The notes beneath the pieces are model-generated. The model was not told where the DNA came from. It worked only from the letters and a program-made list of their open reading frames with translations, and did not search any database. A program made the position numbers and the translations under genes. This document shows, in pieces, positions 4,254-60,048 of a stretch of 64,000 nt of DNA. Location: positions 33,812 to 97,811 of the forward strand of contig CAYSAY010000002.1 of NCBI GenBank assembly GCA_964429215.1, in the 5' to 3' direction. The DNA comes from an uncultured Gammaproteobacteria bacterium. GTDB taxonomy: Bacteria > Patescibacteriota > Microgenomatia > UBA8517. How positions within the stretch are numbered: the first letter of the stretch is position 1; the number at the start of each line of letters is the position of its first letter.

Positions 4254-5048
4254 ATGTATGATATGAAAATGAAACTAAATATAATTGGAAAACTGATGTA
4301 CTTACACGAAATTGTTTGGAATTATACAGATTGGTATAAATTGTTGATAAATCGATTGCTTCACAATGTTACTACTATTCTTAGGATGAGAAATGGTATT
4401 TTTATCTTAGGAGGAAATAGAAGTTTGATCGTAGATTTAGCCTCCGAGATATTTATTCACGAAGTATATAATCCAAAAGAGATGAAAATAAATCCAGGGG
4501 ATTTAGTTATTGATATCGGTGCAAATATTGGGGTATTTGGACTATATGCATCTAAAAACTTAGCCTCTATGGTATACGAGATTGAACCATTGGTTGAAAA
4601 TATACCTATAATTAAATCAAATTTTGAGAAGAATAATTTCAAAAATCTAAAAATTCTGAATGTTGCTGTTTCAGACAAAGATGGTTCAGACAAACTATTT
4701 ACTGCAGATTTAGATTCACATGGTCTACTTTTTGATCATAACGTCCAAGGAGGTTTAACTAAATTTAAAATCGTTAAAACAATGACTTTGGAAACCATAA
4801 TTAAAAAAAATAAAATAAATCATATTAATTTTTTAAAAATGGACTGCGAAGGAAGTGAGGGAAATATTTTTAAATCCACCAAATCAAAGACATGGAAAAT
4901 GATTGATAAGGTTGCAATTGAGTATCATGATAACGTGTCGGTTTTGAATCACCAAAATATAGTTAGTAAGCTGACTTCAAATGGGTACAAAACAAGGATT
5001 GTAGAAAACGATAATTTTTTTGGATATATATATGCATGGAGAAATTAG
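4254..5048 (+). CDS. FkbM family methyltransferase
   Basis: VIDIGANIGVFGLYAS motif typical of Methyltransf_21/FkbM; 264 aa. Confidence 0.65.
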   Translation: MYDMKMKLNIIGKLMYLHEIVWNYTDWYKLLINRLLHNVTTILRMRNGIFILGGNRSLIVDLASEIFIHEVYNPKEMKINPGDLVIDIGANIGVFGLYASKNLASMVYEIEPLVENIPIIKSNFEKNNFKNLKILNVAVSDKDGSDKLFTADLDSHGLLFDHNVQGGLTKFKIVKTMTLETIIKKNKINHINFLKMDCEGSEGNIFKSTKSKTWKMIDKVAIEYHDNVSVLNHQNIVSKLTSNGYKTRIVENDNFFGYIYAWRN

Positions 5049-31726: not shown

Positions 31727-31975
31727 AATTTATATTAGTTGTTTATTGATGTCAAGTGGAGATCTGAATCATCTTGAAATTCCATAGTAGTTATTATTAT
31801 TGGTTGGATAGAATATTTTAAATATGAAACATATCCAACTGTAATATTTATTACTATAAGGAGTGCGACAAAAGATTTAAGTAATCCAAATTTCATGTCT
31901 GTATTGTATACTATAAGATATAATAAGTCAAAAATTGTACGTGTTTAGGACTCTAATGTTATAATTATTTGTATT

Positions 31976-32416
31976 ATGGCAACCATTTTTGAAAGTATTA
32001 ATTTTATTGTTGAATCTAAAGAAAAACCAGAAATTGATAGGCTTGAAGGTGGTCATATAAAAATATCTCCAAAGATAGAAATAGAAGATCGAACTAAATT
32101 AACTCCACAACAGGCAATTGAATTAATGAGGCTAACTATAGTTGTTGGAATAGCCATGAAAGAAGGAATGAAAAAGTCTGGTATAAATATAGGCAGAATT
32201 AATTATCAAGATAATGGAAATTGGACTCCTCATTTTCATATTCATTTGTACGGTCGAGCAATTGACGCCAAAATTCAAAAGTTTGGTGACCCGATTATTA
32301 GTGGATATAGGGAAGAATACAAACCTTTAAATTCAGATGATATTACAAATATAAAAGAAGAGATTGAAAATCAATTTAAATTGGAAAAGTTTCTGGATTC
32401 TTCTTGGGGACTCTGA
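31976..32416 (+). CDS. HIT-like (histidine triad) family protein
   Basis: PHFHIHLYGR fits the HxHxHxx HIT motif. Confidence 0.45.
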   Translation: MATIFESINFIVESKEKPEIDRLEGGHIKISPKIEIEDRTKLTPQQAIELMRLTIVVGIAMKEGMKKSGINIGRINYQDNGNWTPHFHIHLYGRAIDAKIQKFGDPIISGYREEYKPLNSDDITNIKEEIENQFKLEKFLDSSWGL

Positions 32417-32459: not shown

Positions 32460-32538
32460 CTAATTTGTAATGCGGTACGTTAAACGTACCAATTGCCAAG
32501 TTAAACTTGGCGGAGTCAATGGTACGAGTTTAGAACTT
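32460..32538. repeat. copy 1 of local repeat family: 16-mer CTAATTTGTAATGCGG, a 38-nt twin-hairpin insert, then a 25-mer AGTCAATGGTACGAGTTTAGAACTT
   Basis: Direct reading. The insert tacgttaaacgtaccaattgccaagttaaacttggcgg has two 6-bp-stem/UAA-loop hairpins. The flanks are identical to copy 2. Confidence 0.5.
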
Positions 32539-32575
32539 TAATATAGAATGTTTTAGGTGATATTATTACAATAAA

Positions 32576-33166
32576 ATGGAAAGCACTCAGAGAGAAAATA
32601 CTCAATCGAATAATTTTTCGTGGCGTGATGCATTAGAAGATCATAAAGAATGGCTTCAAACGGATATTCCTTTTGGAGAATACCATGGATTTAATTATAA
32701 GGAAGCTGGCTTCGATCTTGAAACTCAAATGAAACAAAGGAGAGACGGAATAATTATTGATGTTGGCGGTCCAACTCGTACATTTGGCGAAGCATTTAAT
32801 GTTGACTCAAGTGCATTCAAAAGAGTATTTAGTACAAATATATCCAAAAAAGCTTATACGTTTTCATCCGAAAATGTCGATTTTCAAGCTGATGGTAGGA
32901 AGTTACCGCTTTCTTCAGATTCTGTAGATGTTGTTTTTGCCGAAGGAGTTATGAGACCGTTGGCTTCTGGCTTCATAGAAGAGGGAGCTAGAGTGCTTAA
33001 ACAAAACGGGTTAATGTTAATTCATTCGTGCAACGAAGCCTCTATCAAAATAGGTGAAAATCTTGGCTTAGAAGTTAAGGAAATTGTTAATGTAGATGAA
33101 AAAGATCCTGGTGACCTATTTCTAGTTGTGTTTCAGAAATTGGTTGATGTAAAGCCTGAGAATTAA
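32576..33166 (+). CDS. class I SAM-dependent methyltransferase-like protein
   Basis: IIDVGGPTRTFGEAF (motif I-like), DVVFAEGVM, ARVLKQNGLMLIHS. Confidence 0.45.
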   Translation: MESTQRENTQSNNFSWRDALEDHKEWLQTDIPFGEYHGFNYKEAGFDLETQMKQRRDGIIIDVGGPTRTFGEAFNVDSSAFKRVFSTNISKKAYTFSSENVDFQADGRKLPLSSDSVDVVFAEGVMRPLASGFIEEGARVLKQNGLMLIHSCNEASIKIGENLGLEVKEIVNVDEKDPGDLFLVVFQKLVDVKPEN

Positions 33167-33258
33167 ACATACTCCAAATTAAGTTAGTATTTTTTTTAAA
33201 TATATCAGAAGTTCTAGTCCCATCACGGGGTATATGCAGTTTGATATAGTTATTGAAG

Positions 33259-33299
33259 CTAATTTGTAATGCGGAGTCAATGGTACGAGTTTAGAACTT
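33259..33299. repeat. copy 2 of local repeat family (16-mer + 25-mer, no insert)
   Basis: ctaatttgtaatgcggagtcaatggtacgagtttagaactt is identical to the copy-1 flanks. Confidence 0.5.
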
Positions 33300-33319
33300 A
33301 CAAATAAGGTAAACAACTC

Positions 33320-33655
33320 TTATCCTTTCTCCCCCCACGCTTTTTTTCTAAGTTTCTTTAGAAGTTCTTCTTCCGCTGGGTTCTGATCGACAAACTCCAT
33401 GCTCTCAAGTCTACGAAGCATACCATTTTCACTTGGAGATAATCTTGGATATTGAAAATCAGGATCATCTATAAGATTTGATATAGCGTCAAGATTTTGA
33501 AGTAGTTTTTTAACATGCGTTTCTTCTACTTCTGATGATCCTCGCTCATTAGCTTCTTCAGCTCCTTTGATGTGAGTGTCTGCAGATTCTAAAAATGCAT
33601 TAAAAAACAAATTTGATGCAGTCGGTCTATTTTCTTGGTTCTTTTTTTCTGACAT
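33320..33655 (-). CDS. hypothetical protein
   Basis: 111 aa charged ORF. Confidence 0.3.
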   Translation of the reverse strand: MSEKKNQENRPTASNLFFNAFLESADTHIKGAEEANERGSSEVEETHVKKLLQNLDAISNLIDDPDFQYPRLSPSENGMLRRLESMEFVDQNPAEEELLKKLRKKAWGEKG

Positions 33656-33734
33656 ATTATAATTTATCTTAATTATATCAAAAGTTCGAAAATAATTATT
33701 AAAATTGAATAATTGATATATTTAGATATACTTT

Positions 33735-34079
33735 TTGTGCCTAATTTGTAATGCGGGATCGACGAGACTCGAACTCAGGTCTATAGCTTGTACTCGAAAT
33801 ATATTAAAACGTGTTCAAGTAAAGTATGGTGATGGTAAATCGTCAAATAGTCAGGGTGCTATCGTTGTAAAATTAGATTATGAGAATAGGAGAAAAGATA
33901 ATTTCACCTATAAATCTTCCGAAGTAGATTTACTTGTTGTTTACATACCAAAAATAGATAAACTTTGTAGTTTTCCACTTGAAATATTTGAAGGTAAACG
34001 TAAATTAACTATTCGAATTGAGAAACCAAAAATAAATCTTGTAAAGGGTATTATTTTTGCAAAAGATTATTATTGGTAG
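33735..34079 (+). CDS. hypothetical protein (start uncertain; overlaps repeat copy 3)
   Basis: 114 aa ORF; the DLLVVYIPKIDK segment is faintly nuclease-like. Low confidence. Confidence 0.3.
   Translation: MCLICNAGSTRLELRSIACTRNILKRVQVKYGDGKSSNSQGAIVVKLDYENRRKDNFTYKSSEVDLLVVYIPKIDKLCSFPLEIFEGKRKLTIRIEKPKINLVKGIIFAKDYYW
33741..33776. repeat. copy 3 of 16-mer CTAATTTGTAATGCGG fused to an inverted 24-nt copy of the tRNA-Asp 3' end (T-arm + acceptor)
   Basis: 33753-33776 is the exact reverse complement of 34363-34386 (gagttcgagtctcgtcgatcccgc). Confidence 0.55.
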
Positions 34080-34125
34080 CGATTATTTGCTTTTTAATGT
34101 AAAATTGCATTGTAAAACTTTAGGT

Positions 34126-34387
34126 GGGGTCGTAGCTCAATTGGTTAGAGCGCTTCCCTGTCGATTTGTGGCAGCTCTTTCTAGCAATATTAAGATGTTA
34201 AATCAGGCTAATTCGGGGAAACCTTTAAAATGGTAATCCCGAGCTAAATCACCGATTAAATCGGTGTAAATGTGTAGAGACTATATACCTGACAACCCTA
34301 GTGGTTGATGAGATAGTCCAAGCTTTAAGGAAACTTAAAGATCGTTGCACGGAAGAGGTTGCGAGTTCGAGTCTCGTCGATCCCGCC
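34126..34387 (+). tRNA. tRNA-Asp (GUC) interrupted by a ~186 nt group I intron (34162-34347) in the anticodon loop
   Basis: Exons: GGGGUCG UA GCUC AAUUGGUUA GAGC G CUUCC CUGU | CAC GGAAG AGGUU GCGAG UUCGAGU CUCGU CGAUCCC G CC. The intron follows U and ends in G. Inside are AAUUCGGGGAAACCU and GUGUAGAGACUAUA, like the J3/4-P4 and P7 elements of small IC3 tRNA introns. A candidate IGS GUGG can pair with exon CUGU. Confidence 0.7.
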
Positions 34388-34406
34388 TAGAGTTTTACAA
34401 TTAAAT

Positions 34407-34655
34407 TTAAACAACAATAACAACCTTACCTTTGAAGTTTTTTAAGGCTAAATTAGATCTTTCTCCTCCTTCGTTTTCAATTGTTCCGTTTTCAATAGCT
34501 AGATATCCACGAATTCCCTTGTCCGTTTCGTTAAAATGTTGACCGCGGTTTTTAAGTACCATCATTACATTTCCTACCACTCGAAATTCATGTATCATCC
34601 CATCATCTATCGGACTTAAATCTTTCCTCATAATTTCAGTATAGTCTTTTATCAC
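34407..34655 (-). CDS. hypothetical protein
   Basis: 82 aa ORF. Confidence 0.3.
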   Translation of the reverse strand: MIKDYTEIMRKDLSPIDDGMIHEFRVVGNVMMVLKNRGQHFNETDKGIRGYLAIENGTIENEGGERSNLALKNFKGKVVIVV

Positions 34656-40473: not shown

Positions 40474-41757
40474 ATGAAATATATAACAATTATTGGGCTT
40501 GAAATACATATAGAACCAAATACAAAATCTAAAATGTTTTGTAGTTGTTCTCAAAACCATTTTGGAGCTAAGCCAAATAGCCAAACTTGTCCAATTTGTT
40601 TAGGTCTCCCTGGTGCGCTTCCGATTGCAAACAAAGAAGCGATTAGAAAAGTTATTCAACTTGGTTTAGCGTTAGGATCTACTATTAGTGATAAAAGTAA
40701 TTTTTACAGAAAGCATTATTTTTACCCTGATTTAGCAAAAAGTTTCCAAACAAGTCAAAAGGATAATCCTTATTGTATCGGTGGTGAGTTAATGGGTAAG
40801 CAAATTAATCATATTCACCTGGAAGAGGATGCAGGTAAATTAATTCATGACACTTTAAATGGAGAAAAAGTGTCGCTAGTCGATTTTAATCGTTGTGGCT
40901 GTGCATTAATTGAAATGGTTACAGAACCAGTATTCCACAGTGTTTTAGAGGTTATAAGCTTTACGAAGGAACTTCAGTTAATTGCAAAGTACTTGGATAT
41001 TAGTAATGCTGATATGGAAAAAGGAACAATGAGACTGGAGGCAAATATATCACTTTCAAAAGATGGTTCACTACCTGATTACAAAGTTGAACTTAAAAAT
41101 ATTAATAGTTTTAAGTTTTTGGAGAAAGCACTAAATGCTGAAATTGAAAGACAAACTATTGCACTTGATAGTGGTGAAAAATTAGTACAGGAGACTAGAG
41201 GTTATGATGAAAATACAAAGAAAACTTTTTCTCAAAGAGTGAAGGCAGATTCTAACGATTATCGATATTTTCCAGAAGCAGATCTTCCCCCTGTAGATAG
41301 TACAGAGTACAAAGTACTGAGTACACAGATAGAACTTCCACAACAAAAGAGAGAAAGGTTTGAGAATGAATATAAACTTTCAAAAGATTATATAGAAATA
41401 TTAGTTTCAGATATATCTAGGGCAAATTATTTTGAGAGTGCAGTAAAACTTGCTCCTGACTTAACAAAGTCAGTTGTAGATTTAATGATTAACAAGCAAC
41501 TTGATAAAGAATATCCTGAACCAGCAGGACTTGTTAAAAAAATAAGGGAAATAACAAATGTTGTTTATGCGACAGCGACAGAAGTTGAAGAATCCATTGA
41601 AAAAGTATTGTCAGAAAATCCTGATGTTGTTACATCTTACAAAAATGGTAAAGGTCAAGTTGTGGGATTTTTGATAGGGCAAGTACAGAAAAAATTACAA
41701 GGTAAAGGTAACACTAAATTAATTACTGAAAAAATTATTCAACAAATAAATGCCTAG
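40474..41757 (+). CDS. gatB: Asp-tRNA(Asn)/Glu-tRNA(Gln) amidotransferase subunit B
   Basis: N-terminal IGLEIHIE...FCSC and overall GatB pattern. Confidence 0.85.
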   Translation: MKYITIIGLEIHIEPNTKSKMFCSCSQNHFGAKPNSQTCPICLGLPGALPIANKEAIRKVIQLGLALGSTISDKSNFYRKHYFYPDLAKSFQTSQKDNPYCIGGELMGKQINHIHLEEDAGKLIHDTLNGEKVSLVDFNRCGCALIEMVTEPVFHSVLEVISFTKELQLIAKYLDISNADMEKGTMRLEANISLSKDGSLPDYKVELKNINSFKFLEKALNAEIERQTIALDSGEKLVQETRGYDENTKKTFSQRVKADSNDYRYFPEADLPPVDSTEYKVLSTQIELPQQKRERFENEYKLSKDYIEILVSDISRANYFESAVKLAPDLTKSVVDLMINKQLDKEYPEPAGLVKKIREITNVVYATATEVEESIEKVLSENPDVVTSYKNGKGQVVGFLIGQVQKKLQGKGNTKLITEKIIQQINA

Positions 41758-47532: not shown

Positions 47533-48246
47533 ATGGACCCTGTGATACAGGCTCAGATTGATAAAACCATGCAAGAGCTTGGTCAGTCAACTAAACCAAG
47601 AGAAAGGTCAAGGATTTCAAAAACTTCAAATGGATATATTTTCTTAATTGCTTGGGCAAATGCAAGTTTGCTTCGTGTTTTAGCTACCAGGTTTACAGAT
47701 TCACTTCCAAGATCTTTATATCGCTTAAAATCGCAACTGGATGATGCATGTAGGTCAGTTGTAGCTAATATTGAAGAAGGGTATGCAAGACAAACAACAT
47801 CTGAATATATAAATTTTTTGGGATACTCAAGAGCAAGTTTAATAGAAGTCAAAGGCGATCTTCAAAGAAGTTTGCAGGATGGTATTTTGGATTCTGCAGT
47901 AGGATCAAGTCTTTTAGATCTAAAAGTAAATTTGGCTGATTGGCATGAAGTATTGAAAAGGACCGTTGTTTCAAAGCCAAACGAAATTAAAGGATTTTGC
48001 GGGAAGTTAAAGGAACTTAGGCTAAAGCGTGGATATACCCAGAGTCCGTTATATACCTTTAAATTCCTATATAAACCTGTAGATAATTTGAAAGTACAAG
48101 ATTTAACTTTTGAAATATTTATCGAACTTGTAAACAAAACTGATTGGAATATTAGAAAATTAATAGAATCTCTTGAGAAGAAACTAAATTCCGATCAAAA
48201 ATTTTATCAAGTAGAGAAAATGCGAACATTTGAGAAATTTAAGTAA
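47533..48246 (+). CDS. four-helix-bundle protein (23S rRNA intervening-sequence protein family) with C-terminal extension
   Basis: ACRSVVANIEEGYARQTTSEYINFLGYSRASLIEVKGDLQ matches the family pattern. Confidence 0.5.
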   Translation: MDPVIQAQIDKTMQELGQSTKPRERSRISKTSNGYIFLIAWANASLLRVLATRFTDSLPRSLYRLKSQLDDACRSVVANIEEGYARQTTSEYINFLGYSRASLIEVKGDLQRSLQDGILDSAVGSSLLDLKVNLADWHEVLKRTVVSKPNEIKGFCGKLKELRLKRGYTQSPLYTFKFLYKPVDNLKVQDLTFEIFIELVNKTDWNIRKLIESLEKKLNSDQKFYQVEKMRTFEKFK

Positions 48247-49934: not shown

Positions 49935-49990
49935 ATTTATAGTTTTTAGTTCTTAATTTTTATTGAATTTCTAATTACTATTTAATAATT

Positions 49991-50350
49991 ATGAATAATA
50001 AATATGATTTAGAAGAAAGATTAGCTGTATACGGTGAAAGAGTTATTAATTTGTGTAAAGATAATTTTAAGAACGAATTTGCAAAGTCAATCATAAATCA
50101 ATTGTTGCGTTCAGGTACATCGATTGGTGCAAACTATAGTGAGGCAAATGGTGCAAGCAGTAAATTAGATTTCAAAAACAAAATACATATTTGTAAAAAA
50201 GAGGCAATTGAGACTAAATATTGGCTAAGAATGTTAAGCAATGCCATACCTAACGAAACTGAGAAGTGTAGAAAATTGTGGAAAGAAACTCAAGAATATA
50301 CATTGATATTCTCTAAAATTATTGGAACTATGCGTTTAAATGCTAAATAG
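49991..50350 (+). CDS. four-helix-bundle protein (23S rRNA IVS protein family), second copy
   Basis: QLLRSGTSIGANYSEANGASSKLDFKNKIHICKKEAIETKYWL. Confidence 0.5.
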   Translation: MNNKYDLEERLAVYGERVINLCKDNFKNEFAKSIINQLLRSGTSIGANYSEANGASSKLDFKNKIHICKKEAIETKYWLRMLSNAIPNETEKCRKLWKETQEYTLIFSKIIGTMRLNAK

Positions 50351-50399
50351 AAAATATGAATTGAATTAAAATTGAGAATTAATAATTAGAAATTAAATT

Positions 50400-56715: not shown

Positions 56716-57753
56716 ATGAATTTAAATGAAGATTATACAAAATTAGATCCAGATGGAGTCGAAAAGGCTTTGGAAAAGTTTCCAGAACAAATTAAAAATG
56801 CCTTTGGGCAAGTACAAAGTACAAAGTACATAGTACAAAGTTTCGATACGATAGTTGTTTCTGGTATGGGAGGGTCAAGTAATGCAGGGAAAATTGTTCA
56901 AGGATTATTAGAAGATAATTATACGAAACCATTTGCTGTGTATAACGATTATGGTTTACCTGCTTGGGTTAATGATAAAACTTTAGTTGTTTTAAATAGT
57001 TATTCAGGAAATACAGAAGAAACACTTTCAGGCTATGAAATTGCTAAAAGTAAAAACGCGCAAATTATTGGAATTGCGACTGGTGGAAAAATTGGTGAGA
57101 TGGTAAAGGCAGGAGTTATTCAAGGAGCAGTAATTGATCCGAAAGATACTAATCCTACAGGATTTCCTAAGTCTGGACTTGGAGTGTCGCTTGGAGGGTT
57201 GCTTGGGGTTCTATTAAATATTGGCGTTATAACAAACGCAGAAGCTGAAATAAATACAGCATTGGTAGAACTTATTGATATTAGGGCTAAATGGAATTGC
57301 AAAGAAATGGCTGAGAAGCTACATGGTTCAATCCCTGTATTGCTTGGTGGTAGGCCGCTTCTTGGCGCATTGAACGCTGGAAGGAACGCAATGTGTGAGA
57401 TATCCAGAAATTTTACTGAGTTCTATGATTTTCCAGAAGTTAATCATGTTCTTGTTGAAGCTGTGGGTAAACCTGCTTCAGCTATATCCAAAAAATATTT
57501 ATTCTTTGAAAGTAAATTTAATCACGACAGAGTAAAACTACGATTCCAAATAACAAAAGATATTTTCATCGAACAAAATCTAAGTACTATGTCCTATGTA
57601 CTAAGTACTTCGAGTGTATTGGCACAATCACTCGAATTAGCTCATTATTGTGCATGGGTAGGTTTTTATCTTTCGATTTTAGATAATACAAACCCTGGAC
57701 CTGAACCTTGGATTTTAAAACTAAAATCTGCCCTTTCCCAGCCGGTGCATTAA
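56716..57753 (+). CDS. SIS-domain bifunctional phosphoglucose/phosphomannose isomerase-like protein
   Basis: IVVSGMGGSSNAG ... VVLNSYSGNTEETL ... IGIATGGKIGE pattern of the archaeal-type PGI/PMI family. Confidence 0.5.
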   Translation: MNLNEDYTKLDPDGVEKALEKFPEQIKNAFGQVQSTKYIVQSFDTIVVSGMGGSSNAGKIVQGLLEDNYTKPFAVYNDYGLPAWVNDKTLVVLNSYSGNTEETLSGYEIAKSKNAQIIGIATGGKIGEMVKAGVIQGAVIDPKDTNPTGFPKSGLGVSLGGLLGVLLNIGVITNAEAEINTALVELIDIRAKWNCKEMAEKLHGSIPVLLGGRPLLGALNAGRNAMCEISRNFTEFYDFPEVNHVLVEAVGKPASAISKKYLFFESKFNHDRVKLRFQITKDIFIEQNLSTMSYVLSTSSVLAQSLELAHYCAWVGFYLSILDNTNPGPEPWILKLKSALSQPVH

Positions 57754-57768
57754 TGCTATATTGAATAT

Positions 57769-60048
57769 ATGACTACACTGCCACTTGTAATCGACTTCAA
57801 AGATATTGATAAAGATTCTCTTGCTTTAGTTGGTGGAAAGGGCGCAAACCTTGGTGAAATGACCAAAGCAGGTTTCCCTGTTCCTAATGGTTTTGCAGTT
57901 ACAGTTCCTGCTTATGACATATTTTTAAAGGAAAATGATATATCTTCCAAAATTTATGACATACTTGCAGTAACAAATGTGGATGATCCTGCACAACTTG
58001 AGAGTGCTTCTAAAAAGTTACAGAAATTAATTAATACGAGTAAATTTCCTGATGCTGTTTTTAAAGATGTAAATAAGTCTTATAAGAAACTATCTGGAAG
58101 ATTTTCCCAAGCTTTAGTTGCTGTACGATCATCTGCAACTGCTGAAGATTTGCCTGGAATGAGCTTTGCCGGGCAACAAGCAACATTTTTAAATATTAAA
58201 GGAGAGTCTAACTTACAAGTTGCAATTCGTGAATGTTGGGCATCACTTTTTACTCCTCGTGCAATTTATTACAGAGTTCAGAATAAAATTAAACACGAAA
58301 AGGTAGGAATTTCTGTAATAGTTCAAAAAATGGTGCAATCTGAAGTTTCTGGAATTATGTTTTCAATTGACCCTGTTACTAACCTTAAAGATAGGATAAT
58401 TATTGATTCCGTTTGGGGACTTGGAGAAATGATTGTGCAAGGATCATATATTCCTGATCATTATGTTGTACAAAAAGAAACTTTTGCGATACTTTCAAAG
58501 GAAGTAAATGAACAAAAGATGCAATATATTAAGAATGGTCAAGTAACTAAAGAGATTGCTGTTCCTACTAAAAATATTAATAGAATTAAATTAAGTGATG
58601 AACAAATTGTTCATTTGGCAAAGTTGTCACAAAAACTTCATGAACATTATTACTTTCCACAGGATTCAGAATGGGCTCTTGAGAAAGGAAAATTATATAT
58701 AGTTCAAACAAGGCCAATAACTACTATTGAAAAAACAAAGGCAGTACATAGTACACAGGACAAAGTACAAAGTGAAACAACTGCGCCAATTCTTAAAGGT
58801 ATACCTGCAAGTCCTGGAATGGGGACGGGAACAGTTAGAATTCTTAAGTCTCCTAAGGAGATTGATAAGATTAAAACAGGAGATATTTTAGTTGCTCCTA
58901 TGACATCTCCTGATTATGTACCAGCCATGAAGAAGGCAACTGCAATTGTCACAAATGAAGGTGGTATGACATCACATGCTGCAATTGTATCTCGTGAAAT
59001 GGGTATCCCTTGTGTGGTCGGTACTAAGGATGGAACTAAAATACTAAAAGATGGAGACTTAATAACTGTTAATGGATCGACTGGTGAAATATATATGGGA
59101 GGAAACAAAGATAATAAGATAAGAGGGACAAGTCCTGATTTGGTGACTCATCATTCTAATCCTAAATCCTCAATTAAGACTGCAACAAAGGTCTATGTTA
59201 ATCTTGCGGAACCTGATTATGCAGCAAAAGTAGCTAAGATGAATGTTGATGGTGTTGGTCTACTTCGAGCAGAGTTTATGATAGCAAACATAGGAATACA
59301 CCCTAAAGAAGCAATCAAAAGACACACTCAAGGTATATTTGTCGATAAATTAGTAAAGGACTTAACAACATTTTGTGAATCTTTTTATCCTAGACCAATA
59401 ATTTATCGTGCAACTGATTTTAAATCTAATGAATATAAAAGTCTTGAGGGGGGTATTCATTGGGAACCAAAGGAACCTAATCCAATGCTTGGGTTTAGAG
59501 GAGCATTCCGTTATATTTCTGATCCTGAAGTATTCAACTTAGAGTTACAAGCTTTAAAGAGGGTTCGTGAAAAATACAATAATTTACATATCATGATTCC
59601 TTTTGTTAGGTCTCCAGAAGAACTTCGTAGGGTAAAAAGACTTGTAAATGCTGGAGGATTATTTGATGACCCTACATTTAAGTTTTTAATGATGTGTGAA
59701 CTTCCAGTAAACGTTATTATGCTTGAAGAGTTTATTAAAGTTGGAATTGACGGAGTTTCTATTGGAAGTAATGATTTGACAATGTTGTTACAAGGAACTG
59801 ACAGGGATAATTCAACTGTCGCAACTGAATTTAATGAAATGCAACCTGAGGTTATTTGGGCACTTAAAAGAGTAATTAAAACTTGTAATAAATTTGGCAT
59901 AACTTCTTCTATTTGTGGACAAGCAGCAAGTACTTATGATGAGCTTGTAGAAATACTTGTTAAAGCTGGAGTTACTAGTGTATCTGTTAATCCTGATGCT
60001 GTAGACAGGGTTCGAAGAATGATTCACGAAACAGAAAAAAACGTTTAA
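57769..60048 (+). CDS. ppsA: phosphoenolpyruvate synthase / pyruvate, water dikinase
   Basis: N-terminal LVGGKGANLGEM, central phospho-His domain GGMTSHAAIVSREMGIPCVVG, C-terminal PEP-utilising domain. Confidence 0.8.
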   Translation: MTTLPLVIDFKDIDKDSLALVGGKGANLGEMTKAGFPVPNGFAVTVPAYDIFLKENDISSKIYDILAVTNVDDPAQLESASKKLQKLINTSKFPDAVFKDVNKSYKKLSGRFSQALVAVRSSATAEDLPGMSFAGQQATFLNIKGESNLQVAIRECWASLFTPRAIYYRVQNKIKHEKVGISVIVQKMVQSEVSGIMFSIDPVTNLKDRIIIDSVWGLGEMIVQGSYIPDHYVVQKETFAILSKEVNEQKMQYIKNGQVTKEIAVPTKNINRIKLSDEQIVHLAKLSQKLHEHYYFPQDSEWALEKGKLYIVQTRPITTIEKTKAVHSTQDKVQSETTAPILKGIPASPGMGTGTVRILKSPKEIDKIKTGDILVAPMTSPDYVPAMKKATAIVTNEGGMTSHAAIVSREMGIPCVVGTKDGTKILKDGDLITVNGSTGEIYMGGNKDNKIRGTSPDLVTHHSNPKSSIKTATKVYVNLAEPDYAAKVAKMNVDGVGLLRAEFMIANIGIHPKEAIKRHTQGIFVDKLVKDLTTFCESFYPRPIIYRATDFKSNEYKSLEGGIHWEPKEPNPMLGFRGAFRYISDPEVFNLELQALKRVREKYNNLHIMIPFVRSPEELRRVKRLVNAGGLFDDPTFKFLMMCELPVNVIMLEEFIKVGIDGVSIGSNDLTMLLQGTDRDNSTVATEFNEMQPEVIWALKRVIKTCNKFGITSSICGQAASTYDELVEILVKAGVTSVSVNPDAVDRVRRMIHETEKNV

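What the first reader, a model, noticed from the sequence alone, without database searches (positions are those of the whole stretch)
32460..33776. Local family of 16-nt repeats, one copy carrying a twin-hairpin insertion and one fused to an inverted copy of the tRNA-Asp 3' end
CTAATTTGTAATGCGG occurs three times within 1.3 kb (32460, 33259, 33741). Copies 1 and 2 share a further 25-mer (AGTCAATGGTACGAGTTTAGAACTT). In copy 1 these two parts are separated by a 38-nt element made of two near-identical 6-bp/UAA hairpins (gtacgt-taa-acgtac, ccaagt-taa-acttgg). Copy 3 instead continues as an exact inverted 24-nt duplicate of the tRNA-Asp T-arm/acceptor (33753-33776 versus 34363-34386). On the minus strand all three read ...CCGC-ATTACAAATTAG, resembling a tRNA 3' end plus flank. 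This looks like attachment-site remnants or miniature mobile elements targeting the tRNA-Asp locus, or scars of intron or homing-endonuclease activity.
Basis: seen in the sequence. Interest (0 to 1): 0.6.

Follow-up and report, generated by a model that had tools for sequence, protein, structure and literature searches.

The report
Gene-cassette array anchored on tRNA-Asp
The three 16-base repeats are the junctions of a small array of swappable single-gene cassettes attached to the 3' end of an intron-containing tRNA-Asp gene in an uncultured Microgenomates/Woesebacteria-type bacterium; it resembles an integron, has no recombinase gene nearby, and I found no published description of it.

Summary
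Comparison with relatives changes the interpretation. Read on the minus strand, the 16-mer is CCGC|ATTACAAATTAG. In relatives L018 and L019 this sequence directly follows the functional tRNA-Asp gene. It then recurs after each of up to eight single-gene cassettes, preceded each time by the rc-25-mer (a degenerate T-arm look-alike). It is usually followed by one of two conserved ~60-nt leaders ending in a promoter-like TGnTATAAT; some leaders are unique.

The window holds three cassettes: a 111-aa ORF, a methyltransferase and a HIT protein. Copy 3 is the array's anchor. It is a 24-bp inverted copy of the tRNA 3' end, lying beside the promoter of a free-standing PD-(D/E)XK homing-endonuclease gene. 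That gene is N-terminally deleted here. The array is joined to the real tRNA in two genomes and to the inverted copy in at least six, so the endonuclease-tRNA segment has inverted between the two arms.

Cassette content differs completely between genomes that share the flanking genes. One cassette is 95% identical between genomes whose adjacent endonuclease gene is 78% identical.

Best explanation (0.55): integron-like site-specific insertion at CCGC| by an unidentified recombinase acting in trans. No recombinase gene is nearby, and nothing has been tested experimentally.

The parts
31925..31960 (-). c0: degenerate terminal boundary element. It is rc-25-mer-like and lacks the 16-mer. It lies next to the 53-aa/LysM genes at the distal end of the array.
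   Evidence: 64% match to the 25-mer region (family D1); sequence. Not detected by the nhmmer profiles, so this is a weak call.
31976..32416 (+). Cassette 3 ORF: HIT-family protein, 146 aa, reversed relative to the array direction.
   Evidence: Pfam PF01230, E=1.3e-7. Bounded by c0 and c1.
32460..32475 (-). c1 junction core (16-mer; CCGC|ATTACAAATTAG on the minus strand).
32476..32513 (-). 38-nt twin-hairpin insertion, sitting exactly at the inferred junction point and bracketed by a CCGC (GCGG) duplication.
   Evidence: The orthologous element of the MTase cassette in L018/L020 lacks it. Homologous inserts occur at the same position in L008_A and L008_B, and three of the six base pairs of hairpin 2 show compensatory changes.
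32514..32538 (-). c1 25-mer: the 3' end of cassette 2 in the array direction (AAGTTCTAAACTCGTACCATTGACT).
32576..33166 (+). Cassette 2 ORF: SAM-dependent methyltransferase, 196 aa, reversed relative to the array direction.
   Evidence: Pfam PF08241. A homologue (75% aa) sits in the L018/L020 array in the same reversed orientation between the same elements.
33198..33258 (-). Beta-type leader of cassette 2. It contains an inverted T-arm-like stretch and an extended -10-like TTCTGATATATT at 33199-33210.
   Evidence: nhmmer beta profile, E=5.5e-30 over 33201-33300. 92% identical to the flank of L007's anchor element. Sequence. The promoter is a consensus match only.
33259..33299 (-). c2 boundary element: 16-mer core plus 25-mer (the 3' end of cassette 1).
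33320..33655 (-). Cassette 1 ORF: 111 aa, no family match, oriented in the array direction.
   Evidence: No Pfam or NCBIfam hit.
33656..33740 (-). Alpha-type leader of cassette 1, with an extended -10-like TTTTGATATAAT at 33672-33683.
   Evidence: nhmmer alpha profile, E=3.1e-22 over 33670-33774. About 90% identical (by eye) to the leader that follows the real tRNA-Asp in L018. Sequence.
33741..33756 (-). c3 junction core (16-mer) at the array anchor.
33753..33776 (-). IR-L: an inverted 24-bp copy of the tRNA-Asp 3' end (T-stem position 51 to C74). This is the anchor (attI-like site) of the array in this genome.
   Evidence: 24/24 match. Conserved at the same place in L005-L009, L014 and L018, and decayed in L016, L017 and L019.
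33777..34079 (+). Remnant of the free-standing PD-(D/E)XK homing-endonuclease gene. The -35 TTGTAC (33787-33792) is kept. The -10, the start codon and about 43 codons are deleted. Homology to intact genes runs over 33801-34079.
   Evidence: Pfam PF11645 matches only profile positions 40-135 of 138. Alignment to the intact L006 and L007 genes. The family is related to PDB 2OST.
34102..34125 (+). tRNA-Asp leader, complementary to the trailer at 34386-34408 (18 of 20 positions pair when counted from the discriminator).
   Evidence: (pair I1).
34126..34385 (+). tRNA-Asp(GUC) gene. Exons are 34126-34161 and 34348-34385. The group I intron is 34162-34347, between anticodon positions 35 and 36.
   Evidence: Rfam RF00028, 88.5 bits. 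ARAGORN on the spliced sequence. This intron class is published (PMC13011429).
34363..34386 (+). IR-R: the 3' end of the functional tRNA-Asp, the partner of IR-L.

Best explanation
The repeats are the boundary sites of a tRNA-Asp-anchored, integron-like array of single-gene cassettes.
Anatomy (shown). Read in the tRNA direction (the window's minus strand), each unit is: leader, usually alpha or beta with a promoter-like TGnTATAAT; one ORF; a 25-nt end (AAGTTCTAAACTCGTACCATTGACT) that resembles the tRNA T-arm/acceptor; then CCGC. The next unit starts with ATTACAAATTAG. The first 'cassette end' of the array is the tRNA-Asp 3' end itself (...CGATCCCGC). So the 16-mer CCGC|ATTACAAATTAG is the junction shared by the anchor and every cassette.
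Mechanism (inferred). Cassettes enter and leave by site-specific recombination at or next to CCGC|. The partners are the tRNA end (attI-like) and a cassette-borne site (attC-like). The recombinase is encoded elsewhere in the genome.
This genome (shown). The array has three cassettes: the 111-aa ORF, the methyltransferase and the HIT protein. Its anchor is not the functional tRNA end but a 24-bp inverted copy of it. This copy lies upstream of the promoter of a free-standing PD-(D/E)XK homing-endonuclease gene, which itself lies just upstream of the intron-containing tRNA-Asp.
Inversion (inferred). Recombination between the two 24-bp arms inverts the endonuclease-tRNA segment and rebuilds an intact tRNA either way. 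This would explain why the array hangs on the real tRNA in some genomes and on the inverted copy in others.
Other points. The endonuclease gene here is a dead, N-terminally deleted copy (shown). The 38-nt twin hairpin is a later insertion exactly at the junction point (shown); its function is unknown.
For: (1) In L018/L020 and L019 the functional tRNA-Asp is followed directly by ATTACAAATTAG plus an alpha or beta leader. In L020 eight cassettes then follow, and each boundary repeats rc-25-mer + CCGC + ATTACAAATTAG + leader in one orientation.
(2) Profiles of the element hit only inside these arrays. This holds across 160 kb of loci and across the whole window.
(3) Gene content differs completely between genomes that share the flanking LysM, PolX and endonuclease genes. 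The window has the 111-aa ORF, MTase and HIT. L007 has NDT, an 81-aa ORF and an ANT-like gene. L008 has a GNAT. L020 has GNAT, cupin, NDT, MTase, NUDIX and others.
(4) The NDT cassette is 94.9% identical over 505 nt, core to core, between L007 and L018. The adjacent endonuclease gene is 78% identical between the same genomes. The cassette is first in one array and fifth in the other.
(5) Three observations place the junction at the same nucleotide: tRNA...CCGC|ATTAC in L018 and L019; the terminal element of L019, which ends ...CCGC|TTGTTAAATTT; and the twin-hairpin insert, bracketed by CCGC at that point.
(6) The cassette end resembles the tRNA T-arm region; 5 of 5000 shuffles score as well. 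Beta leaders carry GACGAGACTAGAACT, 14 of 15 identical to the inverted tRNA T-arm.
(7) The flanks are swapped as an inversion predicts. The window's left flank is the reverse complement of L018's right flank (alpha leader, about 90% by eye). The outer flank of L018's inverted fragment resembles L006's tRNA trailer.
(8) The window's arrangement is seen in independent assemblies (L001 and L002).
Against: No integrase, recombinase or transposase gene lies in the 64-kb window or on the 10.9-kb L020 contig. The only nearby tyrosine recombinase is in L008/L009. It is generic Xer-like and is not conserved at the locus.
The elements have neither the integron attC core motifs nor a significant single-strand fold.
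The crossover point is inferred from few junctions. Only one terminal element (L019) is clean.
The tRNA leader, which lies inside the invertible segment, is complementary to whichever trailer is currently present. A simple recent flip does not predict this.
The phylogeny is too poorly resolved to show repeated inversion.
All relatives are metagenome-assembled contigs. Only about ten genomes were compared. There is no experimental evidence of excision, insertion or inversion.
Confidence: 0.55

Rival explanations
1. Homologous recombination only. The boundary elements are conserved intergenic modules (the end of one gene plus the promoter of the next). They arose by tandem duplication of the tRNA-Asp 3' end and its downstream region. 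Cassettes are then swapped between strains by ordinary homologous recombination through these ~110-bp modules after DNA uptake. No dedicated site-specific recombinase is involved.
For: No recombinase gene is near any array. The boundaries are long and more than 90% conserved within and between genomes, which is enough for RecA-type exchange. The leaders contain promoter-like sequences, so they could be conserved for expression.
Against: Homologous recombination does not explain how unrelated genes came to lie between identical boundaries. It also does not explain why junctions with non-homologous DNA fall at the same nucleotide: tRNA...CCGC|, the L019 terminal CCGC|, and the hairpin insert at CCGC|. 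The restriction to a single tRNA-anchored locus is typical of site-specific systems.
Confidence: 0.25
2. Miniature transposable elements. The 41-nt unit (or the ~110-nt unit) is a MITE-like or REP-like repeat that has inserted several times between genes near the tRNA. The genes between copies are ordinary residents.
For: The repeats are short and intergenic. The 38-nt twin hairpin does behave like a small insertion with a 4-bp duplication, and it recurs at the same site in other genomes. A palindromic insertion sits in another element in L020.
Against: All copies lie in one locus and in one orientation. There are no copies elsewhere in 64 kb. The genes between the copies, not the copies themselves, are what vary between genomes. 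The first copy of the series is the tRNA gene end itself. The 41-nt unit has no target-site duplications.
Confidence: 0.07
3. Scars of homing-endonuclease or intron activity. Double-strand breaks made by the PD-(D/E)XK enzyme at tRNA-Asp were repaired illegitimately. This left tRNA fragments and local duplications.
For: A homing-endonuclease gene and a group I intron sit directly beside the repeats. The origin of the 24-bp inverted duplication is unexplained and could be a repair product.
Against: L010 and L011-L013 have the same endonuclease-tRNA::intron pair but no inverted fragment, and the regex, blastn and profile comparisons found neither the 16-mer nor the 25-mer there. The repeats are regular, oriented and conserved across genomes, not idiosyncratic scars. 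In the window the endonuclease is dead while the inverted copy is perfect.
Confidence: 0.05
4. A purely regulatory motif. On this view the 16-mer/25-mer is an operator, terminator or RNA-processing signal shared by co-regulated small genes, and mobility is not implied.
For: The leaders end in TGnTATAAT-like boxes. In L018 and L019 the 16-mer is part of the pre-tRNA trailer and pairs with the leader, so it may have an RNA-level role there.
Against: The position relative to genes is inconsistent. In the window the element is downstream of HIT, upstream of MTase, downstream of the 111-aa ORF, and upstream of both divergent genes at c3. There is no terminator-like structure, and folding of c2 and c3 is at chance level. 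A regulatory role does not explain the cassette turnover.
Confidence: 0.05

Closest known systems
Integrons, especially sedentary chromosomal integrons with highly similar attC repeats (e.g. the Vibrio cholerae repeats)
   Same: A tandem array of small, mostly single-ORF cassettes in one locus. Each cassette ends in a conserved repeat. One fixed anchor site sits at the head of the array. Cassette content and order differ between related genomes. Cassette functions are of the same general kind: small enzymes such as acetyltransferase, nucleotidyltransferase-like, NUDIX, methyltransferase and cupin.
   Different: There is no intI gene next to the array. The anchor is the 3' end of a tRNA gene (or an inverted copy of it), not attI. 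The repeats lack the RYYYAAC/GTTRRRY cores and show no significant attC-like single-strand fold. Forward cassettes carry their own promoter-like leader. The family is known so far only from a few Microgenomates/Woesebacteria MAGs.
tRNA-targeting integrative elements and the islands they build (e.g. tycheposons of Prochlorococcus, bioRxiv 10.1101/2020.12.28.424599; from my own knowledge also CIME-type integrase-less elements that accrete beside ICEs)
   Same: Insertion at a tRNA gene, with successive insertions pushing older ones outward and leaving partial-tRNA-like repeats through the island. Integrase-less units depend on a recombinase supplied in trans.
   Different: The units here are 0.45-0.9 kb with one gene, not multi-kb elements with integration and replication modules. 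No unit carries an integrase. The repeats keep only CCGC plus a degenerate T-arm look-alike, not a true partial tRNA. The shared core extends into the trailer, and the anchor can be an inverted copy of the tRNA end.
Collaborative homing: a free-standing homing endonuclease beside an intron-containing gene (F-CphI and psbA of cyanophage S-PM2; PMC6083498, citing Zeng et al. 2009)
   Same: An endonuclease gene lies next to, not inside, a gene interrupted by an endonuclease-less group I intron. The endonuclease belongs to Pfam PF11645, a PD-(D/E)XK family reported inside tRNA-fMet introns of Cyanobacteriota (PMC13011429), and is related to PDB 2OST.
   Different: This precedent concerns the neighbouring module, not the repeats. 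Cleavage specificity is untested here. The gene in the window is a deleted pseudogene. Collaborative homing does not predict cassette arrays or the inverted tRNA fragment.
Group I introns at position 35/36 of tRNA-Asp/tRNA-Asn in Patescibacteria (PMC13011429)
   Same: The window's tRNA-Asp intron is of this published kind. It has the same insertion site, it escapes standard tRNA finders, and the 5' exon ends in U while the intron ends in G.
   Different: That paper does not mention adjacent free-standing endonuclease genes, inverted repeats or cassettes. It infers limited intron mobility from the lack of endonuclease genes inside the introns.
Invertible DNA segments bounded by short inverted repeats (phase-variation switches, shufflons) - from my own knowledge
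   Same: A segment bounded by inverted repeats is found in both orientations relative to its flanks, and a functional gene is reconstituted either way.
   Different: No invertase is identified. The arms are the end of a tRNA gene. The evidence is between-genome comparison only, not within-population switching. The arms are decayed in several lineages.

Membership tests
Integron | An integron-integrase gene (intI) adjacent to the cassette array | tested here: not met
   No tyrosine recombinase in the window or on the whole L020 contig. L008's nearby recombinase is generic Xer-like (best NCBIfam 90.8 bits against a cut-off of 220) and has no homologue at the other loci.
Integron | attC sites with RYYYAAC/GTTRRRY cores and an imperfect-palindrome single-strand fold | tested here: not met
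   The core motifs were not found on reading the sequences. ssDNA folding z-scores run from -1.7 to +1.2. Beta-type elements do have a 14-bp inverted repeat.
Integron | A tandem array of single-ORF cassettes whose content varies between strains | tested here: met
   Arrays of up to 8 cassettes (1 in L019, 3 in the window, 8 in L020). Content differs between genomes with shared flanks. The NDT cassette is 95% identical at different positions.
tRNA-targeting integrative element / genomic island | Insertion at the 3' end of a tRNA gene, with the tRNA kept intact | tested here: met
   In L018 and L019 the array begins immediately after the discriminator + C of an intact tRNA-Asp.
tRNA-targeting integrative element / genomic island | Direct repeats of a true partial tRNA flanking each element | tested here: inconclusive
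   The boundaries share CCGC and a T-arm-like stretch (5 of 5000 shuffles score as well). They are not tRNA fragments. The only true fragment is the inverted 24-mer.
tRNA-targeting integrative element / genomic island | An integrase encoded by the element | tested here: not met
   Every cassette holds one small non-recombinase ORF.
PD-(D/E)XK homing endonucleases (Pfam PF11645, PDDEXK_5) | Sequence membership of the family | tested here: met
   Window ORF: PF11645, 47.9 bits against a cut-off of 26.1, but only profile positions 40-135. The intact L006 homologue matches PDB 2OST at E=3.7e-8. NCBI names cluster members 'group I intron-associated PD-(D/E)XK endonuclease'. I recall 2OST as I-Ssp6803I; the deposited name is only 'Putative endonuclease'.
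PD-(D/E)XK homing endonucleases (Pfam PF11645, PDDEXK_5) | An intact catalytic core and cleavage of the intron-less allele | tested here: not met
   In the window the N-terminal ~43 codons are deleted, including the YDL Asp region that aligns to 2OST, together with the start codon. Cleavage activity cannot be tested with these tools.
Group I intron in tRNA (position 35/36 class of Patescibacteria) | A match to the group I covariance model, and exon ends that restore a canonical tRNA | tested here: met
   RF00028, 88.5 bits against a gathering score of 50. The spliced 74-nt product is called tRNA-Asp(gtc). The 5' exon ends in U and the intron in G, as described in PMC13011429.
MITE / REP-type dispersed repeat | Many copies dispersed over unrelated loci of the genome | tested here: not met
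   There are no copies outside 31.9-33.8 kb in the 64-kb window. The rest of the genome was not available.

The most novel reading that the evidence does not exclude
A previously undescribed gene-capture platform in Patescibacteria, a 'tRNA-anchored integron analogue'. Promoter-bearing single-gene cassettes are inserted one after another at the 3' end of an intron-containing tRNA-Asp. The recombination sites imitate that tRNA end, and there is no dedicated integrase next to the array. The anchor can be switched between the real tRNA and an inverted copy by flipping the endonuclease-tRNA segment. The recombinase would be either a housekeeping Xer-type enzyme used in trans or an unrecognised enzyme.
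Probability: 0.4. Interest if true: 0.85.

Novelty: new variant of a known kind. Interest (0 to 1): 0.68.

Why it matters
Patescibacteria (CPR) have tiny genomes, and how they exchange accessory genes is poorly understood. If this reading is right, it would be a compact, sequence-defined platform for acquiring and shuffling single genes in these organisms. It is built on a tRNA gene instead of on an integron integrase. The boundaries are precise enough to search for in any assembly.

It would give a concrete handle for finding the responsible recombinase, by looking for a family that co-occurs with arrays. It would also allow cataloguing of the mobile accessory gene pool of an uncultured lineage.

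The finding also qualifies a recent conclusion that Patescibacteria tRNA introns are largely immobile because they lack internal endonuclease genes (PMC13011429). In this clade the tRNA-Asp intron has a free-standing endonuclease gene immediately upstream, seen in several stages of decay.

Finally, these repeats break short-read assemblies at this locus. That matters for MAG quality and for tRNA-Asp annotation.

Tried and rejected
(1) RNA antisense idea: that copy 3 lies in the endonuclease/tRNA transcript and pairs with the tRNA 3' exon. Rejected. The fragment lies upstream of the conserved -35/-10 of the endonuclease promoter. In addition, its substitutions in L006 and L008 would create mismatches with the invariant tRNA.
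(2) That the 82-aa ORF downstream of the tRNA (34407-34655) is the missing N-terminus of the endonuclease, brought in by inversion. Rejected. It has a homologue next to PolX in L005 (84 aa, judged by eye) and no PF11645 signal.
(3) That the 25-mer, or the long element with its hairpins, is a tRNA or tRNA-like gene. No tRNA call from ARAGORN or from Rfam even at E<=10. Manual threading finds hairpins with 7-nt loops but no acceptor or D-arm.
(4) A sigma-70 promoter or terminator role for the 16-mer or 25-mer itself. The consensus scan is at background level (21 sites against 16 +/- 4 expected), and no site falls inside the 16-mer or the 25-mer proper.
(5) attC-like folding of whole elements. 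Not significant.
(6) A nearby recombinase. tblastn with L008's integrase and L012's serine recombinase found nothing in the window or the other loci. Pfam on the window's ORFs found none (precomputed annotation).
(7) Counting inversion events from a tree of the invertible segment. Bootstrap support of 28-64% is too low.
(8) Collection scans. The metagenome scan with a degenerate element pattern gave only two loci, both from genomes already in hand. The viral contig scan gave none.
(9) Literature searches for integrons or cassettes, or tRNA-linked islands, in Patescibacteria found nothing relevant.
Full report
1. THE OBSERVATION

The 16-mer CTAATTTGTAATGCGG is present exactly three times, at 32460, 33259 and 33741. 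Even with two mismatches allowed it occurs nowhere else in the 64 kb, and none of 100 shuffles gives three matches. The 25-mer occurs exactly twice. The 24-nt inverted copy of the tRNA 3' end is exact (33753-33776 against 34363-34386). The 38-nt insert in copy 1 (32476-32513) forms two hairpins and is bracketed by GCGG...GCGG. A whole-window repeat search shows no other repeat family of comparable exactness.

2. THE SURROUNDINGS

ARAGORN does not call the 'tRNA-Asp' because it carries a group I intron (RF00028, 88.5 bits). Using the rule that the 5' exon ends in U and the intron in G, I place the intron at 34162-34347 (186 nt), between anticodon positions 35 and 36. The spliced 74-nt product is called tRNA-Asp(gtc). 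This intron class has been described in Patescibacteria, with self-splicing shown in vitro (PMC13011429).

Immediately upstream, ORF 33735-34079 matches the PD-(D/E)XK endonuclease family PF11645, but only from profile position 40 onward. Intact 136-aa homologues exist in more than 130 protein clusters. The sources that name them assign them to Woesebacteria, Chisholmbacteria or Patescibacteria, and NCBI calls some of them 'group I intron-associated PD-(D/E)XK endonuclease'. The intact L006 protein is related to PDB 2OST, which I recall as I-Ssp6803I.

Compared with intact genes, the window's copy lacks the promoter -10, the start codon and about 43 codons, so it is a pseudogene. In L005 the gene is almost entirely gone. 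A free-standing endonuclease beside an endonuclease-less intron is the arrangement named 'collaborative homing' for F-CphI and psbA (PMC6083498). Whether this enzyme works that way is an inference, not something I tested.

The organism is a Microgenomates/Woesebacteria-type bacterium, judged from its closest relatives. The window matches an ENA metagenome contig, and the same arrangement occurs on an independently assembled contig.

3. WHAT RELATIVES SHOW

I fetched the same locus from about ten related genomes. I used PolX as an anchor, then endonuclease homologues and a homologue of the window's methyltransferase.

3a. Copy 3 is conserved and is not a private scar. The 16-mer followed by an inverted tRNA-Asp 3' copy lies upstream of the endonuclease gene in L005, L006, L007, L008/L009/L014 and L018. 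It ends about 11 nt before a conserved promoter-like TTGCAC-17-TATNNT. Mismatches to the tRNA number 0 in the window, 1 in L007, 4 in L006 and L008, and 5 in L005 and L018. Decayed versions are recognisable in L016, L017 and L019. The more distant L010 and L011-L013 have none.

3b. The 16-mer is the natural continuation of the tRNA gene in two genomes. In L018 and L019 the functional tRNA-Asp ends ...CGATCCCGC and continues ATTACAAATTAG plus a conserved leader. In L018 (full contig L020) eight single-gene cassettes follow. They are GNAT, a 162-aa ORF, a 268-aa ORF, cupin, a nucleoside deoxyribosyltransferase-like gene (NDT), a reversed methyltransferase, a 136-aa ORF and NUDIX. The boundaries after the first seven read AAGTTCTAAACTCGTACCATTGACT-CCGC-ATTACAAATTAG-leader, all in one orientation. 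The element after the last cassette is degenerate and carries a palindromic insertion.

3c. The leaders. Two types recur, which I call alpha and beta. Both end in TTTTGRTATAAT, a match to the extended -10 consensus just upstream of the next ORF. This is a consensus match only and not evidence of promoter function. Some cassettes have other, unique leaders, for example after c1 in the window and after the NDT cassette in L007.

3d. The elements are confined to the arrays. nhmmer profiles built from L020 elements hit only inside the arrays of each locus. In the window they hit only c1, c2 (beta type) and c3 (alpha type).

3e. The window's array. Read on the minus strand, away from copy 3, the order is as follows:
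- anchor (IR-L plus core)
- alpha leader and the 111-aa ORF
- c2
- beta leader and the reversed methyltransferase
- c1, with the hairpin insert
- the reversed HIT gene
- a degenerate terminal element c0
- the 53-aa and LysM genes

4. EVIDENCE THAT CASSETTES MOVE

Genomes that share the flanking LysM, PolX and endonuclease genes carry entirely different cassettes. The NDT cassette is 94.9% identical over 505 nt, core to core, between L007 and L018. The adjacent endonuclease gene is 78% identical between the same genomes. The cassette is first in the L007 array and fifth in the L018 array. The window's methyltransferase cassette recurs in L018 (79% nt) between the same kinds of element and in the same reversed orientation. 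It is second in the window's array and sixth in L018's.

The L018 counterpart of c1 lacks the twin hairpins. Homologous inserts sit at the same position in two L008 elements, and three of the six base pairs of hairpin 2 differ by compensatory changes. What the hairpins do remains unexplained.

5. WHERE THE JUNCTION LIES

Three independent junctions fall at the same nucleotide, after CCGC:
- the tRNA end joined to ATTACAAATTAG in L018 and L019
- the last element of the L019 array, which keeps rc-25-mer-CCGC and then continues with unrelated sequence (TTGTTAAATTT) up to PolX
- the hairpin insert in c1, bracketed by CCGC

These are shown. The cassette end resembles the tRNA T-arm region more than chance; 5 of 5000 shuffles score as well. 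Beta leaders contain an inverted near-copy of the T-arm, 14 of 15 identical. Each beta-type cassette therefore repeats the plan of the endonuclease-tRNA segment: an antisense arm, a promoter, an ORF, and a sense arm ending in CCGC.

I infer insertion of circular cassettes at the tRNA end, with new cassettes entering next to the anchor as in integrons. This is an inference from anatomy, not a demonstration.

6. THE INVERTED COPY

The two 24-bp arms bracket the endonuclease promoter, the endonuclease gene, the tRNA 5' exon, the intron and part of the 3' exon. Recombination between the arms would flip this segment and restore an intact tRNA in either orientation.

Both outcomes exist. The array is joined to the real tRNA in L018 and L019. 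It is joined to the inverted copy in the window, L005, L006, L007 and L008/L009/L014. The flanks are exchanged as predicted. The window's left flank is the reverse complement of L018's right flank. The outer flank of L018's inverted fragment resembles the tRNA trailer of L006.

A tree of the segment is too weakly supported to count events. How the inverted duplicate first arose is unknown.

7. AN UNEXPLAINED COMPLICATION

In every genome of this clade except L017, the 12-17 nt before the tRNA are complementary to the trailer currently in place. Only 0-2 of 2000 shuffles pair as well. There are at least six different sequence versions. One of them is a 16-mer-like leader opposite the ATTACAAATTAG trailer in L018 and L019. 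L010 and L011 lack this pairing.

The leader lies inside the invertible segment and the trailer outside it, so a simple flip would break the pairing. Either the leader is re-templated from the trailer (a quasipalindrome-type correction, which is my speculation), or a pre-tRNA leader-trailer helix is under strong selection.

8. RECOMBINASE

None is encoded in the window or on the L020 contig. L008/L009 have a generic Xer-like tyrosine recombinase beyond LysM, but it has no counterpart at the other loci. The enzyme, if there is one, acts in trans. This is the main weakness of the model and the main support for the rival explanation by homologous recombination alone.

9. COMPARISON WITH KNOWN SYSTEMS AND NOVELTY

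The array works like an integron, but it fails the integron membership tests: there is no intI, no attC motifs and no attC-like fold. It resembles islands built by tRNA-targeting elements such as tycheposons. However, its units are single genes without integrases, and its repeats are not true partial tRNAs.

The intron is already published (PMC13011429). That paper does not mention the adjacent endonuclease, the inverted repeat or cassettes. My literature searches found no description of such arrays in Patescibacteria. The library is incomplete, so the array may have been described elsewhere. I rate it a new variant of a known kind.

10. CAVEATS

All relatives are metagenome-assembled contigs, and only about ten genomes were compared. 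Judged from the contig names, the assemblies used final k-mers of 127-141, and the longest runs of identity I saw shared between elements (roughly 40-60 nt by eye) are shorter than that. The arrays are therefore unlikely to be assembly artefacts. Even so, short contigs from other samples do break inside these repeats. Only 64 kb of the source genome was available.

Noticed in passing
window 34126-34385: tRNA-Asp(GUC) is interrupted by a 186-nt group I intron between anticodon positions 35 and 36 and is missed by ARAGORN. The spliced product is a canonical tRNA-Asp. This intron class is already published for Patescibacteria (PMC13011429).
   Followed up: yes
window 33777-34079; L006 5108-5518; L005 ~1050-1170: A decay series of a free-standing PD-(D/E)XK homing-endonuclease gene directly upstream of the intron-containing tRNA-Asp. 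It is intact in L006-L008 and L016-L019, N-terminally deleted in the window, and almost gone in L005. The published survey of these introns looked for endonuclease genes only inside introns and concluded that mobility is limited.
   Followed up: partly
window 34102-34125 and 34386-34408; same positions in L005-L008, L016, L018, L019: The tRNA-Asp leader and trailer are complementary for 12-17 nt beyond the acceptor stem. The sequences differ between genomes but always match each other. Relatives without the inverted tRNA fragment lack this pairing. The cause is unknown; it could be templated correction or selection on a pre-tRNA helix.
   Followed up: partly
window 49962-50398: A 119-aa gene of the '23S rRNA intervening sequence protein' family (PF05635; 49991-50350) is bracketed by a 29-nt inverted repeat (49962-49990 / 50370-50398, 79% complementary). 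A second PF05635 gene lies at 47533-48246.
   Followed up: no
window 41299-41328, 56811-56854, 58743-58772: Short runs of a heptamer-like repeat AGTACA[AG] occur at three separate places.
   Followed up: no
L002-L004 (contigs of the same organism from other samples): Short contigs begin or end inside the boundary elements. Assemblies fragment at this locus, which fits repeat-induced breaks or strain heterogeneity in cassette content.
   Followed up: no
L020 ~4935-4990: The terminal element of the eight-cassette array carries a perfect 22-nt palindrome insertion (GCCTGCCTGCCGGCAGGCAGGC) inside the rc-25-mer. This is a second kind of small insertion into these elements, besides the twin hairpin.
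   Followed up: no
L012 5527-7074 versus L011 and L013: Genomes encoding the identical endonuclease protein differ by a called large serine-recombinase gene near RusA and PDDEXK_1 genes downstream of LysM. However, tblastn finds the same 515-aa protein at 100% identity in L011, so part of the difference may be gene calling. A separate integrated element may use the same neighbourhood.
   Followed up: no
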